A stretch of 64,000 bases of DNA from Nannocystis bainbridge (lineage in GTDB: Bacteria; Myxococcota_A; Polyangia; Nannocystales; Nannocystaceae): contig NZ_JAQNDL010000002.1 in NCBI RefSeq assembly GCF_028368995.1, positions 609,724-673,723 of the forward strand, given 5' to 3'. The translations under genes were made by a program, and so were the position numbers. Shown piece by piece: positions 35,013 through 38,081 of the stretch. The notes below the pieces were generated by a model, which was given only the letters and a program-made list of their open reading frames with translations, made no database searches and was not told the origin of the DNA. Positions within the stretch are counted from its first letter, which is position 1. Every line of letters begins with the position of its first letter.

Positions 35013-35579
35013 TTACTTGCTATCGTCCCAGGGCTCGTCCGCGCCGGCGTAGGTGCTGGCGTCGGCCGTATCCTCGCTGGTGGTCCAGTCGGACGTGTCC
35101 CACTCCTCGTCGGGGCCGGCGTAGGTGCTGGCGTCGGACGAGTCGTTGGTGCTGTTGGTGGTGGTCGACGTCGAGCCGGTGGAGGTGGTCGACGTGGTCG
35201 ACGTGTCGTCGCCGGTGGTCGTGGTCGAGTCGCCCCAGGTGGTCCAATCCTCGTCGGGGCCGGCATAGGTGGCGCCGTCGCTCGAGGTGGTGATCGTCGG
35301 GTCGACGGTGTCGCCGCCCGGGTTGGACGAATCGGACACCATCGAGGTGTCGGCCACGGTGTCACCGTTATCGGCGGTGTCGCTGGCGGTGGCCGTCTCG
35401 TCGCCGAGGTCGCGGTCGACCTGGCAGGCGGCGCCGAGGACCCCGAGGCTGGCAGTGAAGGCGACGGCGGCCCAGGTCGAGCCGAGCGAGTGGCGCTGGA
35501 CGTGGCCGCAGAACGGGCAGGTCGCGTCGGCGGCGCGGAACAAACAGGCACAATCAGGGCAGTCGATAAGCGAAGACAT
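35013..35579 (-). CDS. Zinc-ribbon / single-TM membrane protein with Thr/Ser/Asp-rich tail carrying three [AG][ST]TYAG[PA]DE[DEP]W repeats
   Basis: CPDCACLF..CPFCGH zinc ribbon, TM segment (WAAVAFTASLGVLGAAC), acidic low-complexity tail. The underlying DNA shows about 30-bp direct repeats. Confidence 0.5.
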   Translation of the reverse strand: MSSLIDCPDCACLFRAADATCPFCGHVQRHSLGSTWAAVAFTASLGVLGAACQVDRDLGDETATASDTADNGDTVADTSMVSDSSNPGGDTVDPTITTSSDGATYAGPDEDWTTWGDSTTTTGDDTSTTSTTSTGSTSTTTNSTNDSSDASTYAGPDEEWDTSDWTTSEDTADASTYAGADEPWDDSK

Positions 35580-35657
35580 GCCCGGACCTTAGCAGACTGG
35601 GGCCGCGCGCGGCCATAAAATCCGCCGTGACGGCCGCGGCTCAAGTACATTGCCGGG

Positions 35658-38081
35658 GTGTCTGTCGCACTCGCGGTGGCGCTCGCGACGATGGCCGCGA
35701 GCCTGGTCGGCCTGGTCGCGCTGCACCACGAAGGGCTGCGCCGCGTGCTGCTGCGCGGCGTCGACCCACGGCCGCTGGCGCTGCTGCGAATCGCGTTCGG
35801 CTGCTGCCTGCTGGTGAACTTGTTCGAAGTCGCGCCGCTGGCCACCTATTTGTTCTCGGACGAGGGGCTGCTGCCGCGGGCAGCGGTGCCGGAGGTGATG
35901 GGGCGCGCGGCGCTGGTCGGGTTCGGCGACGGCGTGCGCGAGCCGGCCGGCCCGCAGGACGCGAGGGCGGCGCTCGAGTTCGTGATCAGCGGGCGGTGGT
36001 CGCCGCTTTATTTCGTCGACAGCCCGGCGGCGGTCGGCGTCCACTTCGGGCTGTTGATGGCGGCCGCGCTGGCGCTGACGCTGGGGTTTCGCACCCGGTT
36101 CAGCGCGTGCGCGACGTGGCTGCTGTACGCCGGGCTGCTGCGCCGCGGCGACGCCCACTGGGGCGGAGAGCAGGTGTTCTGCGCGTTCCTGTTCCTGCTG
36201 CTGTGGGCGCGCAGCGGGGCGGCCTACAGCGTCGACAACTGGCGGCGCTGCCGGGCATTGCGACGACATGGCCTTTTGAGCATGACCTCGGGGACAGGTG
36301 CGGGGGCGGGCGCGAGGCCGTCGACAGAGGCGCCGCAGGGGCTGGCGGCGATCTATCGGCGGGTGCCGGCGTGGCCGCAGGCGCTGATGGCCGGGCAGCT
36401 GGCGCTGTGCTACGCGGCCAACGGGTGGGCCAAGGCGGGGGTGGCGTGGCAGACCGGCGACGTGCTGCAGATGACGCTGCTGCGCGACACGTTCGTGCGC
36501 TGGGACCTGTCGGCCGCGATCGCCATGACTGGGCCGTGGCCGCTGCGACTGGCGAGCTGGGGGGTGCTGTGGTGGGAGCGGCTGTTCCCGCTGGTGCTGG
36601 TCGGGCTGGCCGCGCGGGCGCTCGGGCGCTGCGGGGCGCCGGCGCTGCAGGGGACGGCGGCGGCGCTGGCCCGGGTGTGCTGGGGCGGGCTGGCGACGGC
36701 GGCGGCGATCGCCGCGGCTGTCCCGGGGGACCTGGTCGAAAAGCCAGATACGCCGGGGGCGGCGGAGCGAGCGGCGATGCTGGCGGTGCTGGCGGTGCTG
36801 GCCGCGGCGGTGGCGATCGCGGGGCCGCGGGCGGGGGCGGCGGTGCGGCGGCTGGCCGACGGTCCGCTGGCGCCGAAGTGGTGGCTGGGGTTCGGGGCGC
36901 TGTTCCACCTCGGCAACCACGTGTTGCTGGCAGTGGGGGCGTTCGCGCCGGCGACGATCGCGGTGTACCTGGTCTGCGGCGCGGGCCCGTGGGCGGTGGC
37001 GACGCTGCGGCGCGCGGCGGGCTGGCTGGCGCGGCGCGGGCTGCCTGTCCCCGAGAACCTGGTCAAAGAGACAGCCGTCGAGGATGGGTCACTGCCGCAC
37101 CTGCACCGCGACGCGGCGGCGCTGCCGGGGTGGGCGATCGCGGCGGCGGGGGGGCTGATTTTGGCGGGCGGGGCCGGGGCGCTGATCTCCGGGTGGGGGG
37201 CCGGGGCGTGGCACGCGGCGTGGCTGGCCGCAGGGACAGGTCTGACGATCATCGGCTGGCGGATCGCGCGGCGCGATCGCGGCAAGACGATGGCGCTGGT
37301 CGAGCCGTGGGCGCACGGGCCGGCGGGGCGGCTGGCGGCCGGGGGACTGGTCGCGTACCACGTGGTGGCGCTGCTGGTGTGGCAGCTGCCGGCGTGGCAC
37401 AGCCTGCCGTGGCGCGACTCGACGCGGACGCTGTTGGGGCCGTGGATCGAGCTGAGCTTCACGAGCCAGGTGTGGTCGATGTTCGCGCCCAATCCGCCGC
37501 GCGATCAGGCGATGCTGCGGGCGACGGTGGTCGACGCGGCGGGGGTCCAGCACCGGTTCGGGACGGAGCCGCAGCGCGCGGACGACCTGCCGCGGCCGGC
37601 CCCGTGGCACGACCGCTGGCGGAAGATCGGCGACAACGTGCTGGGACAGCGCAAGACGCTGATGCCGCGGCACGCGCGGTACCTGTGCCGCCGCTGGGCG
37701 CTCGAGCACGGCGGGGAGGCGCCGCGCGAGGTGCTGCTCGAGATGGTGCTCGGGCCGTTGACGCCGCCAGGCAGCGATCCGCGCGAGCACTTCGCGGCGC
37801 ATCACAAGGTGAAGCCGCTGACGCAGGTGACGTGCGCGGAGGAGCCGTTCGCCCAGCTGGCGCCGGCGGTGCGGGCACGCCACGGGCTGCCGCCGGCGCC
37901 GGAAGGTTCGCTGAAGTTCGCGTGGGAGCGGCCGGGGCGGTGGGCGGACCGCCAGGCCCGGCGCAATCCGCTGGCTCCCCTGTGGCCGCTGATGGCGCTG
38001 GGGCTGCTGGGGGCGCTGGCAGGGTGGGCGCGAGAGGATCGGCGGGCGCGGGTGGCGATGCGAGCGTCGGCGAGGTCCTGA
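35658..38081 (+). CDS. HTTM-domain membrane protein (vitamin-K-dependent gamma-glutamyl carboxylase-like)
   Basis: N-terminal HTTM signature (LALLRIAFGCCLLVNLFE ... Trp-rich TM helices). C-terminal region ..VWSMFAPNPPRDQ.. resembles VKGC-like lumenal domain. GTG start. Confidence 0.6.
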   Translation: MSVALAVALATMAASLVGLVALHHEGLRRVLLRGVDPRPLALLRIAFGCCLLVNLFEVAPLATYLFSDEGLLPRAAVPEVMGRAALVGFGDGVREPAGPQDARAALEFVISGRWSPLYFVDSPAAVGVHFGLLMAAALALTLGFRTRFSACATWLLYAGLLRRGDAHWGGEQVFCAFLFLLLWARSGAAYSVDNWRRCRALRRHGLLSMTSGTGAGAGARPSTEAPQGLAAIYRRVPAWPQALMAGQLALCYAANGWAKAGVAWQTGDVLQMTLLRDTFVRWDLSAAIAMTGPWPLRLASWGVLWWERLFPLVLVGLAARALGRCGAPALQGTAAALARVCWGGLATAAAIAAAVPGDLVEKPDTPGAAERAAMLAVLAVLAAAVAIAGPRAGAAVRRLADGPLAPKWWLGFGALFHLGNHVLLAVGAFAPATIAVYLVCGAGPWAVATLRRAAGWLARRGLPVPENLVKETAVEDGSLPHLHRDAAALPGWAIAAAGGLILAGGAGALISGWGAGAWHAAWLAAGTGLTIIGWRIARRDRGKTMALVEPWAHGPAGRLAAGGLVAYHVVALLVWQLPAWHSLPWRDSTRTLLGPWIELSFTSQVWSMFAPNPPRDQAMLRATVVDAAGVQHRFGTEPQRADDLPRPAPWHDRWRKIGDNVLGQRKTLMPRHARYLCRRWALEHGGEAPREVLLEMVLGPLTPPGSDPREHFAAHHKVKPLTQVTCAEEPFAQLAPAVRARHGLPPAPEGSLKFAWERPGRWADRQARRNPLAPLWPLMALGLLGALAGWAREDRRARVAMRASARS

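What the first reader, a model, noticed from the sequence alone, without database searches (positions are those of the whole stretch)
35013..38081. Divergent pair: zinc-ribbon membrane protein with an acidic repeat tail, and an HTTM / vitamin-K-dependent carboxylase-like membrane protein
Gene 35013..35579 (minus) and gene 35658..38081 (plus) share a 78-bp divergent promoter region. The first encodes a zinc ribbon, one TM helix and a Thr/Ser/Asp tail with three [AG][ST]TYAG[PA]DE[DEP]W motifs. The second encodes an 807-aa HTTM-domain protein (LRIAFGCCLLVNLFE... Trp-rich TM core, C-terminal ..WSMFAPNPPRDQ..). That fold is the one of eukaryotic gamma-glutamyl carboxylase, which converts Glu to Gla in short acidic motifs. 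Bacterial HTTM proteins have no established substrates. A divergently co-regulated neighbour carrying repeated PDEEW/PDEDW Glu-containing motifs is an attractive candidate substrate. Together with the adjacent rSAM/SPASM and MVP genes this forms an unusual protein-modification neighbourhood.
Basis: inference. Interest (0 to 1): 0.65.

Follow-up and report, generated by a model that had tools for sequence, protein, structure and literature searches.

The report
Tyrosine-motif lipoprotein, radical SAM, HTTM cassette
The small acidic protein and the vitamin-K-carboxylase-like membrane protein are a genuinely conserved gene pair, but the small protein looks first of all like the substrate of the neighbouring radical SAM enzyme (a relative of peptide 'spliceases'), with the carboxylase-like protein as a probable second modifier, which gives a concrete candidate protein substrate for a bacterial enzyme family whose function is largely unknown.

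Summary

The pair is conserved in 11/11 orthologous loci against 1/69 paralogue loci.

The interpretation needs revision:
- The conserved unit is three genes and includes the rSAM/SPASM gene 33417..34736 (10/11 loci). MVP is not part of it.
- The small protein belongs to a superfamily (563 cluster representatives): zinc ribbon + lipobox Cys + disordered tail with x-Y-[AG]-[GA]-P motifs. Members sit next to a PlpX-like rSAM, usually without HTTM.
- Other subfamilies carry a PMT_2 glycosyltransferase or a copper monooxygenase instead.
- D-E is not invariant, a second HTTM-containing trio has L-Y-G-P without D-E, and GGCX's Glu-binding N159/H160 are not conserved.

Best reading: a splicease-like protein-modification cassette whose lipoprotein precursor is modified at Tyr in the cytoplasm, exported, then tailored by the HTTM enzyme. 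The chemistry is unproven. New variant of a known kind; interest 0.6.

The parts
33417..34736 (+). Radical SAM/SPASM enzyme (439 aa), splicease-like (PlpX-type clade); CxxxCxxC cluster motif CDQHCAHC at 33552..33575
   Evidence: Pfam Radical_SAM E 1.4e-24. Best NCBIfam hits are TIGR04103 'nif11-class peptide radical SAM maturase 3' (425 bits) and TIGR03913 'GDL motif peptide-associated rSAM/SPASM maturase' (414 bits), both below their cut-offs; the next family scores 150 bits. Conserved at 75-95% identity beside the HTTM orthologues in 10 of 11 loci.
35013..35579 (-). Precursor-like small protein (188 aa): zinc ribbon + lipoprotein-type signal segment + disordered acidic tail with three Tyr motifs
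   Evidence: ORF. Coding frame supported. Family alignment A1 with invariant C7, C10, C21, C24, C52. AF2 model: only residues 1-30 confident, helix 33-45, tail disordered. Superfamily of 563 representatives.
35508..35561 (-). Zinc ribbon CPDCACLFRAADATCPFC (residues 7-24), inferred cytoplasmic; candidate recognition handle ('leader') for the rSAM enzyme
   Evidence: Invariant Cys in 26/26 aligned homologues. Retained in all paralogous subfamilies. pLDDT 84-90 with beta strands. The leader role is inference.
35424..35474 (-). Hydrophobic segment ending in lipobox-like L-G-A-A-C (Cys52 invariant)
   Evidence: Matches the PS00013 lipobox pattern, as do 33/47 family members including 9/9 members of the paralogous subfamilies. 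Some homologues also carry a MYXO-CTERM-type tail, which supports export of the tail.
35244..35279 (-). Tyr motif 1, DGATYAGPDEDW (residues 101-112)
35100..35135 (-). Tyr motif 2, DASTYAGPDEEW (residues 149-160)
   Evidence: Slight pLDDT rise (62) in this block.
35028..35063 (-). Tyr motif 3, DASTYAGADEPW (residues 173-184)
35580..35657 (.). 78-bp divergent intergenic spacer between the small gene and the HTTM gene
   Evidence: No consensus promoter detected. Comparable short spacers occur in orthologous loci.
35658..38081 (+). HTTM / GGCX-fold polytopic membrane protein (807 aa)
36432..36449 (+). K259...W264, equivalents of the GGCX catalytic base K218 and its stacking partner W223
   Evidence: HMM alignment to GGCX chains. 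K and W are 80/80 invariant across orthologues and paralogues. Roles of the GGCX residues are taken from PMC12647623.
36903..36944 (+). F416-H417 ... F429, equivalents of GGCX F286/H287 (F286 lies under the naphthoquinone ring) and F299 (CO2 stacking)
   Evidence: F416 73/80, F429 80/80.
37380..37970 (+). C-terminal soluble domain (residues 575-771) with invariant QxWxMFxPN motif and invariant Cys pair C677/C726; inferred periplasmic; followed by a last TM helix (37971..38027) and an Arg-rich tail
   Evidence: No Pfam family even at E <= 10. Periplasmic location is inferred from the conserved Cys pair and the positive-inside rule.

Best explanation
This is a three-gene protein-modification cassette of the RiPP type, acting on a small lipoprotein.

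1. The 188-aa protein is the precursor. It has a cytoplasmic N-terminal zinc ribbon, a lipoprotein-type signal segment ending at the invariant Cys52, and a disordered, strongly acidic Thr/Ser/Asp tail with three copies of D-[GA]-x-T-Y-A-G-P-D-E.
2. The convergent radical SAM/SPASM enzyme (33417..34736) is a close relative of the tyramine 'spliceases', which act on X-Tyr-Gly sites. It modifies the Tyr of each motif in the cytoplasm. [quoted passage not shown] This step is inferred.
3. The protein is then exported. Its zinc-ribbon/signal part is probably removed at the lipobox Cys, leaving a lipid-anchored modified tail. This step is inferred.
4. [quoted passage not shown] It acts as a clade-specific tailoring enzyme on the exported tail at the periplasmic face, using menaquinol and O2 to generate a strong base. 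This step is inferred.

The carbon that the HTTM enzyme attacks is unknown. It could be the nearly invariant Asp/Glu after the motif, or the enolisable carbon of the rSAM-made ketoamide. Classical Glu gamma-carboxylation is not favoured.

**Shown:** gene conservation and linkage, family memberships at the level of sequence and fold, motif conservation.
**Inferred:** every chemical step, the export, and the order of events.
For: **Linkage**
- The small protein lies beside the HTTM orthologue in 11/11 loci, against 1/69 paralogue loci.
- The rSAM is present in 10/11 of those loci at 75-95% identity.
- Three gene orders retain the trio: rSAM> <small HTTM> (window and most loci); <small <rSAM HTTM> (L007); and a tightly packed HTTM> small> rSAM> operon of paralogues (L049).

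**The small protein as rSAM substrate**
- The same architecture (zinc ribbon, lipobox Cys, disordered tail, 1-4 x-Y-[AG]-[GA]-P motifs) lies next to rSAM paralogues at 48-67% identity:
  - N. radixulma: SYYAGP
  - Plesiocystis: DYGGP
  - Enhygromyxa: DYGG
  - Pseudenhygromyxa: DYGGA
  - HK-STAS-MYXO-15: four tandem genes, AYGGPP
  - Metagenome contigs: KYGAP 11 bp upstream of the rSAM, DYAGP 5 bp upstream

- The residue before Tyr varies between subfamilies, as does X in splicease X-Y-G sites (PMC9811515).
- In many family members, including the window protein, every Tyr lies in a motif.
- The rSAM's two best NCBIfam models are peptide-maturase families at about 420 bits, with the next at 150 bits.
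- Splicease chemistry and X-Y-G specificity are taken from PMC11414181, PMC11626197 and PMC10533398.

**HTTM as an enzyme**
- GGCX is the only fold match.
- K259, W264 and F429 are invariant in 80/80 family members.

**Tailoring role**
- In other subfamilies the position beside the core pair is taken by a PMT_2 GT-C glycosyltransferase (L081) or a secreted copper type II monooxygenase (L093).

**Export of the tail**
- Lipobox pattern in 33/47 members.
- MYXO-CTERM-type tails on some homologues.
Against: - No experiment exists; all chemistry is inferred.
- The window's site is T-Y-A-G, not the canonical X-Y-G. In this subfamily the residue after Tyr is Ala in 63/74 instances and Gly in 10/74.
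- I could not obtain a verified splicease sequence to compare directly. That TIGR04103 corresponds to PlpX is my recollection, not a tool result.
- The rSAM scores below the cut-offs of both NCBIfam models.
- A lipobox Cys at position ~50 behind a zinc ribbon is unusual, and 14/47 members violate the classical pattern (D/N/P at -3).
- L085 has rSAM + HTTM but no small protein within 6 kb. L084 has the rSAM alone. L066 has the small protein plus a shortened HTTM and no rSAM within 10 kb.
- About 68 HTTM paralogues have no such neighbours, so HTTM function is not tied to this module in general.
- No direct evidence shows that HTTM touches the small protein.
Confidence: 0.55

Rival explanations
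1. The HTTM protein is a vitamin-K (menaquinol)-dependent gamma-glutamyl carboxylase. Its substrate is the Glu of the PDE[E/D]W segments, which it converts to Gla. The rSAM gene is incidental.
For: - The pair is conserved in 11/11 orthologous loci.
- D+4 is 96% and E+5 is 78% conserved in the HTTM-linked subfamily.
- Equivalents of the GGCX base Lys, stacking Trp and CO2-stacking Phe are invariant.
- Topology is compatible.
Against: - Glu is absent from 22% of motif instances. Both motifs of each of the two small proteins in L009 read TYGGPDS.
- The paralogous HTTM trio in L049 has LYGP motifs without D-E.
- Acidic residues after the motif also occur in subfamilies without HTTM.
- GGCX N159/H160, which hold the Glu carboxylate, align to G-[TGA] followed by an invariably acidic residue, although that alignment segment is weak.
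- There is no Gla-domain or propeptide similarity.
- The rSAM is better conserved than either partner and is the universal neighbour of the small-protein family.
Confidence: 0.12
2. The rSAM enzyme modifies the Tyr motif by chemistry other than tyramine excision, for example a C-C or C-O crosslink, hydroxylation or epimerisation. The cassette logic (precursor, rSAM, HTTM tailoring) is otherwise the same.
For: - The window motif has Ala, not Gly, after Tyr.
- The rSAM lies below the cut-offs of both nearest NCBIfam models, so it forms a separate clade.
- rSAM/SPASM enzymes perform many different peptide modifications (established knowledge).
Against: - Sister subfamilies have canonical D-Y-G, A-Y-G, L-Y-G and K-Y-G sites.
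- Within the window's own subfamily, T-Y-G-G alternates with T-Y-A-G at homologous positions.
- The free choice of the residue before Tyr mirrors splicease sites (PMC9811515).
Confidence: 0.2
3. The HTTM protein does not modify the small protein. Its conserved neighbourhood reflects a link to the rSAM enzyme or shared regulation. Examples: HTTM supplies or consumes a membrane cofactor; HTTM is itself an rSAM target; or the small protein's motifs merely dock on the HTTM periplasmic domain as a regulator or adaptor.
For: - L085 has rSAM and HTTM divergently adjacent without a small-protein gene within 6 kb.
- In L007 the HTTM gene faces the rSAM gene, not the small gene.
- Most HTTM paralogues have unrelated neighbours.
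Against: - L066 keeps the small protein next to the HTTM gene without an rSAM.
- The small gene sits between or beside both enzymes in 11 loci, and in L049 it is sandwiched in one operon.
- Other subfamilies carry recognisable extracytoplasmic peptide or protein-modifying enzymes in the equivalent place.
Confidence: 0.15

Closest known systems
Spliceotide systems (rSAM/SPASM spliceases PlpX, PcpX, RhaX, RcsX/RasX with their precursor 'A' proteins)
   Same: - An rSAM/SPASM enzyme is encoded next to a precursor carrying short, often repeated Tyr-Gly-containing sites in which the residue before Tyr is free.
- Many systems are binary (no Y protein).
- The nearest NCBIfam models are peptide-maturase families.
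- Protease and protease-inhibitor genes recur nearby, in line with the protease-inhibiting ketoamide products reported for spliceotides (PMC11626197).
   Different: - The precursor is not Nif11/NHLP-like. Its N-terminus is a zinc ribbon fused to a lipoprotein-type signal peptide, and the core is a long disordered Thr/Ser/Asp tail.
- The window's site is T-Y-A-G-P-D-E rather than X-Y-G.
- An HTTM membrane enzyme is a conserved third component.
- The reaction is untested.
- I could not read the main survey of splicease types (Scott et al. 2022, Chem), so prior listing of this type cannot be excluded.
[quoted passage not shown]
   Same: - HTTM Pfam domain.
- Equivalents of K218, W223, F286, H287 and F299 are conserved.
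- The active side faces the non-cytoplasmic compartment, where the candidate substrate is.
   Different: - Only about 13-16% identity.
- An insertion of about 90 residues (318-408), plus extra N- and C-terminal TM helices.
- The C-terminal domain is unrelated at the Pfam level.
- N159/H160 are not conserved.
- The candidate substrate has no propeptide or Gla domain.
- The cofactor would be menaquinol.
- No VKOR gene is in the window.
MloH (malonomycin biosynthesis, Streptomyces): bacterial vitamin-K-dependent-carboxylase-like enzyme
   Same: It is a bacterial HTTM enzyme working as a tailoring step in a natural-product-type pathway. It is reported to carboxylate an aspartyl-derived residue (PMC12186529; bioRxiv 10.64898/2026.08.19.745780). 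It shows that bacterial HTTM enzymes can act on non-Glu carbon acids.
   Different: Its substrate is a polyketide-nonribosomal peptide intermediate, not a ribosomal lipoprotein, and no rSAM partner is reported.
HTTM proteins of other ribosomal-peptide loci (linaridin clusters; B. subtilis SdpB, the latter from my own knowledge)
   Same: HTTM membrane proteins are encoded beside ribosomally made peptides that are matured and exported. In linaridins their role is still unclear (PMC9927463).
   Different: The precursors and partner enzymes are different. None is linked to an rSAM/SPASM enzyme or to Tyr motifs.

Membership tests
HTTM / vitamin-K-dependent carboxylase superfamily (PF05090) | Match to the HTTM profile above Pfam's gathering score | tested here: met
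   32.9 bits against 27.7 for the full length; 36.5 bits for residues 1-347. The profile search against PDB sequences hits only GGCX, E 4e-6.
HTTM / vitamin-K-dependent carboxylase superfamily (PF05090) | GGCX-type membrane fold | tested here: met
HTTM / vitamin-K-dependent carboxylase superfamily (PF05090) | Catalytic base Lys218 with stacking Trp223; Phe286 under the quinone; Phe299 at the CO2 site | tested here: met
   K259 80/80, W264 80/80, F416 73/80, F429 80/80. Residue roles are from PMC12647623.
Gamma-glutamyl carboxylase proper (GGCX orthologue, Glu to Gla) | Glu-carboxylate binding residues Asn159/His160 (and Tyr395, Arg436) | tested here: not met
   N159/H160 align to G169/G170. 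Across the family these positions are G, then T/G/A, followed by an invariably acidic E/D171. That alignment segment is weak (4.5 bits). Y395 and R436 could not be mapped.
Gamma-glutamyl carboxylase proper (GGCX orthologue, Glu to Gla) | Lumenal propeptide-binding domain, and substrates with a propeptide plus a Glu-rich Gla domain | tested here: not met
Gamma-glutamyl carboxylase proper (GGCX orthologue, Glu to Gla) | Quinol-, O2- and CO2-dependent carboxylation activity | not testable with these tools
   Needs biochemistry or mass spectrometry.
Splicease-type rSAM/SPASM peptide maturases (spliceotide pathways) | Radical SAM CxxxCxxC cluster plus SPASM domain; closest relatives are the PlpX-type maturase families | tested here: inconclusive
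   CDQHCAHC is present. Radical_SAM E 1e-24. TIGR04103 scores 425 bits and TIGR03913 414 bits, both below their cut-offs of 725 and 592; the next family scores 150 bits. No verified splicease sequence was available for direct comparison.
Splicease-type rSAM/SPASM peptide maturases (spliceotide pathways) | Adjacent precursor with X-Tyr-Gly splice sites | tested here: inconclusive
   The window protein has T-Y-A-G three times, not Y-G. Orthologues alternate T-Y-G-G with T-Y-A-G. Sister subfamilies have D-Y-G, A-Y-G, L-Y-G and K-Y-G.
Splicease-type rSAM/SPASM peptide maturases (spliceotide pathways) | [quoted passage not shown] | not testable with these tools
   Needs co-expression and LC-MS/MS.
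Bacterial lipoproteins (lipobox, signal peptidase II substrates) | Lipobox pattern {DERK}6-[LIVMFWSTAG]2-[LIVMFYSTAGCQ]-[AGS]-C after a hydrophobic segment, with Cys within about 15-35 residues of the N-terminus | tested here: inconclusive
   The pattern is met in the window protein (…TASLGVLGAA|C) and in 33/47 family members. However, the Cys lies at position 44-55, behind a zinc ribbon, and 14 members have D/N/P at position -3.

The most novel reading that the evidence does not exclude
A GGCX-fold HTTM enzyme acts on a ribosomally made, rSAM-spliced, lipid-anchored protein in the myxobacterial periplasm. It would use menaquinol and O2 to carboxylate, or otherwise functionalise, a carbon acid in or next to the T-Y-A-G-P-D-E site, for example the enolisable carbon of the ketoamide or the invariant Asp. 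This would be the first protein substrate of a bacterial vitamin-K-carboxylase homologue. It would also be a new leader design, in which a zinc ribbon fused to a lipoprotein signal peptide serves as a self-removing RiPP leader.
Probability: 0.3. Interest if true: 0.85.

Novelty: new variant of a known kind. Interest (0 to 1): 0.6.

Why it matters
Bacterial homologues of the vitamin-K-dependent carboxylase are numerous. At least 304 relatives of this one subfamily were confirmed among GTDB species genomes, often with several copies per Nannocystaceae genome. In the literature I could search, the only bacterial homologue with a reported reaction is MloH.

This locus offers a defined, short, repeated candidate target (T-Y-A-G-P-D-E) on a small protein. 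It also offers a genetically compact three-gene system that can be expressed and analysed by mass spectrometry, so the question becomes directly testable.

Independently, the data define a large family of splicease-like systems (563 cluster representatives). Their precursors are zinc-ribbon lipoproteins, and their accessory enzymes vary between HTTM, a GT-C glycosyltransferase and a copper monooxygenase. If the chemistry is tyramine splicing, these would be surface-anchored ketoamide proteins. That is plausibly a protease-inhibitor function in predatory, protease-secreting myxobacteria, and it would be a natural example of splicing applied to proteins rather than to small peptides.

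Tried and rejected
- **Conserved neighbours of HTTM paralogues.** I clustered all ORFs within 5 kb of the 80 HTTM loci to find a universal neighbour. None exists; only abundant kinase families and clade-specific synteny appear. 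The HTTM family as a whole is therefore not tied to this module.
- **Strict regexes.** My first patterns missed L006 (two tandem small genes) and L049. I corrected this by reading the ORFs.
- **MVP and KGGVGR ATPase as cassette members.** Rejected: both are present only in the four Nannocystis sensu stricto loci.
- **Promoter/terminator scan of 34600..35800.** Nothing found. This is uninformative in a 72% GC myxobacterium.
- **Pfam on the HTTM C-terminal domain at E <= 10.** No family.
- **Literature.** No held paper mentions TIGR04103 or TIGR03913. None links spliceases with Nannocystaceae genera. The key survey (Scott et al. 2022, Chem) is not held. Supplements held no splicease sequence.
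- **Co-folding rSAM + small protein or HTTM + motif peptide.** Prepared but not submitted. Fused or locus-derived sequences are not accepted, and the tool returns no coordinates, so docking could not have been read.
- **AFDB50 fold search.** The library is unavailable.
- **Antisense ORF 35269..35592(+).** It also has high GC3. I rejected it as the gene because the minus-strand frame carries the conserved zinc ribbon and motifs across 38 homologues.

Full report
**Source and observation**

The window is from Nannocystis bainbridge: the 807-aa ORF is 100% identical to a protein of that species, and GC content is about 72%.

The small ORF is the true coding frame. Its GC3 is 0.92, and substitutions relative to three orthologues fall mainly on third codon positions. 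The protein has four parts:
- a C-x2-C-x10-C-x2-C zinc ribbon;
- one hydrophobic segment (residues 36-54);
- a 136-residue tail of net charge -30, made mostly of Thr, Asp and Ser;
- three near-identical 12-residue motifs in that tail.

No sigma-70 consensus promoter or terminator was detected around the pair, so co-regulation is inferred from geometry only.

**The HTTM protein**

- Pfam HTTM is matched above the gathering score.
- A profile of 23 homologues hits only GGCX among all PDB sequences.

I used the residue roles given in PMC12647623 and the HMM alignment. In an alignment of 80 family members that includes distant paralogues:
- K259 (GGCX base K218) is invariant, 80/80.
- W264 (the Trp that stacks on K218) is invariant, 80/80.
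- F429 (the Phe at the CO2 site) is invariant, 80/80.
- F416 (the Phe under the naphthoquinone) is conserved, 73/80.
- GGCX N159/H160, which hold the substrate Glu carboxylate, align to G-[T/G/A] followed by an always-acidic residue. That alignment segment is weak.

The protein also differs from GGCX in several ways:
- extra N- and C-terminal TM helices;
- an insertion of about 90 residues;
- a C-terminal soluble domain (575-771) with an invariant QxWxMFxPN motif and an invariant Cys pair, which matches no Pfam family.

From the Cys pair and the Arg-rich C-terminal tail, I infer that this domain is periplasmic.

**Conservation of the pair**

A scan of GTDB species genomes returned 80 loci. The HTTM family is highly paralogous within Nannocystaceae, with several copies per genome.

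A zinc-ribbon/T-Y-[AG]-G protein lies next to the HTTM gene in all 11 loci whose HTTM is 44% or more identical to the query. That count includes L006, which has two tandem copies. It lies next to only one of the 69 paralogue loci (Fisher p = 1e-12).

**The unit is a trio, and MVP is not in it**

tblastn of the window's neighbours shows the rSAM/SPASM gene in 10 of the 11 orthologous loci, at 75-95% identity. That is better conserved than HTTM (44-82%) or the small protein (about 35-80%). MVP and the KGGVGR-ATPase/TPR gene occur only in the four Nannocystis sensu stricto genomes.

The order of the three genes changes while the linkage persists. In L007 the small gene and the rSAM gene lie in tandem, divergent from HTTM. 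In L049, paralogues of all three form one tightly packed same-strand operon, HTTM > small > rSAM. L066 keeps the small protein and a shortened HTTM without an rSAM.

**What the small protein is**

Its homologues share invariant zinc-ribbon cysteines, an invariant Cys at the end of the hydrophobic segment, and the motif D-[GA]-x-T-Y-[AG]-G-P-D-E. In many members, including the window protein, every Tyr lies in a motif.

The Cys context fits the classical lipobox pattern in 33 of 47 members, including all nine from paralogous subfamilies. Some homologues add a MYXO-CTERM-type sorting tail. I therefore read the 'TM helix' as the h-region of a lipoprotein signal peptide whose long n-region carries the zinc ribbon, and the tail as exported. 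This is an inference.

AlphaFold2 folds only the zinc ribbon with confidence, plus a helix at residues 33-45. The tail is disordered.

**Its universal partner is the rSAM enzyme**

The rSAM family is large and paralogous: 5147 hits below 1e-40, many at 60-67% identity within Nannocystaceae. I looked at seven loci found through rSAM paralogues. Five carry a small protein of the same architecture with a different Tyr site:

| Organism or locus | Tyr site |
|---|---|
| N. radixulma | SYYAGP |
| Plesiocystis pacifica | DYGGP / DYGGA |
| Enhygromyxa salina | DYGG |
| Pseudenhygromyxa | DYGGA |
| HK-STAS-MYXO-15 | AYG[GSA]PP, four tandem genes |

Only one of the seven (L085) has an HTTM gene, and that locus lacks a small gene within 6 kb.

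An exhaustive profile search finds 563 cluster representatives of the small-protein family. Of the best 150, 126 have the zinc ribbon, 112 have a lipobox and 114 have an x-Y-[AG]-[GA]-P site. The residue before Tyr may be T, A, D, Y, F, K, S, E or L.

Contexts retrieved from the small-protein side always show the rSAM directly adjacent:
- 11 bp downstream in a Lys-rich KYGAP subfamily, whose rSAM is 48% identical to the window's;
- 5 bp downstream in a DYAGP subfamily;
- at the contig edge in the others.

**What the rSAM enzyme is**

Its two best NCBIfam models are 'nif11-class peptide radical SAM maturase 3' (TIGR04103) and 'GDL motif peptide-associated radical SAM/SPASM maturase' (TIGR03913). 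Both score about 420 bits, and the next model scores 150 bits. All clade members score below both cut-offs, so this is an unnamed sister clade.

Spliceases are rSAM/SPASM enzymes of Nif11-type and other precursors. [quoted passage not shown] Hundreds of binary enzyme-precursor systems are reported, and the known products inhibit proteases (PMC11414181, PMC11626197, PMC10849128, PMC9811515, PMC10533398).

The Nannocystaceae sites fit that logic. The exception is that Ala often replaces the Gly after Tyr: in the window's subfamily it is Ala in 63/74 instances and Gly in 10/74. That TIGR04103 corresponds to PlpX is my recollection. I could not obtain a verified splicease sequence to test it.

**Role of HTTM**

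In different subfamilies, the place beside the core pair is occupied by HTTM (this clade, L049, L085), by a PMT_2 GT-C glycosyltransferase (L081), or by a secreted copper type II (PHM/DBH-like) monooxygenase (L093). All three are membrane or extracytoplasmic enzymes. This is the pattern of variable tailoring enzymes around a conserved core.

Together with the conserved catalytic residues and the matching topology, this makes 'HTTM tailors the exported tail' the best reading.

Classical Glu carboxylation of the PDE segment is not favoured, for four reasons:
- Glu is missing from 22% of sites, for example TYGGPDS in L009.
- The L049 trio has LYGP sites without D-E.
- Acidic residues follow the site in HTTM-less subfamilies too.
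- The GGCX Glu-binding residues are not conserved.

MloH shows that bacterial HTTM enzymes can carboxylate other carbon acids (PMC12186529; bioRxiv 10.64898/2026.08.19.745780). The spliced ketoamide carbon is reported to enolise readily (PMC10533398), which makes it a conceivable target. That last point is speculation.

**Limits**

- No chemistry is shown.
- The Scott et al. 2022 survey could not be read, so this precursor type may already be catalogued.
- About 68 HTTM paralogues have unrelated neighbours.
- L084, L085 and L066 are incomplete versions of the module.
- The window holds no VKOR or menaquinone genes, which says nothing about the rest of the genome.

**Verdict**

The locus is best described as a splicease-like lipoprotein-modification cassette with an HTTM tailoring enzyme. 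That makes it a new variant of a known kind, of moderate to high interest, because it gives a testable protein substrate for a bacterial GGCX homologue.

Noticed in passing
window 30753..33248 (+): A major-vault-protein-like gene (Pfam MVP_shoulder 5.9e-30, Vault_3, Band_7). At 93-94% identity among Nannocystis species it is the best-conserved gene of the neighbourhood. It is absent from the non-Nannocystis trio loci. A bacterial MVP homologue is unusual in itself.
   Followed up: partly
window 38533..40215 (+): A KGGVGR-motif variant AAA ATPase (NCBIfam NF047398, 94.6 bits, above its cut-off) fused to TPR repeats, directly downstream of the HTTM gene. It is conserved only in Nannocystis sensu stricto.
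   Followed up: partly
L083 7527..8780; L086 7772..8797; L088 1760..3970 and 5825..6613: Protease-related genes recur beside rSAM + small-protein modules: a serpin between the rSAM and the small gene in Enhygromyxa salina, a Trypsin_2 protease in Pseudenhygromyxa, and S9/Tricorn-like and M24 peptidases on a metagenome contig. This fits the protease-inhibitor activity reported for spliced ketoamide peptides.
   Followed up: no
L087 7568..9578: One rSAM gene is followed by four zinc-ribbon/lipobox genes (three tandem, one convergent) with A-Y-G-[GSA]-P-P sites. This is a multi-precursor arrangement, as in many RiPP clusters.
   Followed up: partly
L093 2221..3633; L081 3970..5943: Alternative partners of the core pair. 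One is a secreted copper type II ascorbate-dependent-monooxygenase-like protein with a cytochrome-c-type CxxCH motif. The other is a 657-aa PMT_2 (GT-C) glycosyltransferase placed divergently from the rSAM gene, where the window has HTTM.
   Followed up: partly
L005 12368..13225; alignment A1 rows P0088, P0100, P0105, P0112, P0114: Some small-protein homologues end in a MYXO-CTERM-like sorting signal (G-C, a hydrophobic stretch, an Arg-rich end). L005 and L009 carry a second copy of the small gene a few kb away.
   Followed up: no
loci L010, L011, L014-L016, L018-L020, L075: One HTTM paralogue subclade has its own conserved synteny. It includes a gene resembling S-adenosylmethionine decarboxylase (by eye: 'QGFNNLTKVVSFNLYDF'). 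Other HTTM paralogues may therefore belong to different pathways.
   Followed up: no
window 40778..43965 (-): Two adjacent minus-strand ORFs (40778..43456 and 42196..43965) that I labelled DUF1552 and DUF1588 by eye; no Pfam scan was run on them. Relatives of the 42196..43965 product turn up near some HTTM paralogues (L026, L051, L073) at about 30% identity, probably by chance.
   Followed up: no
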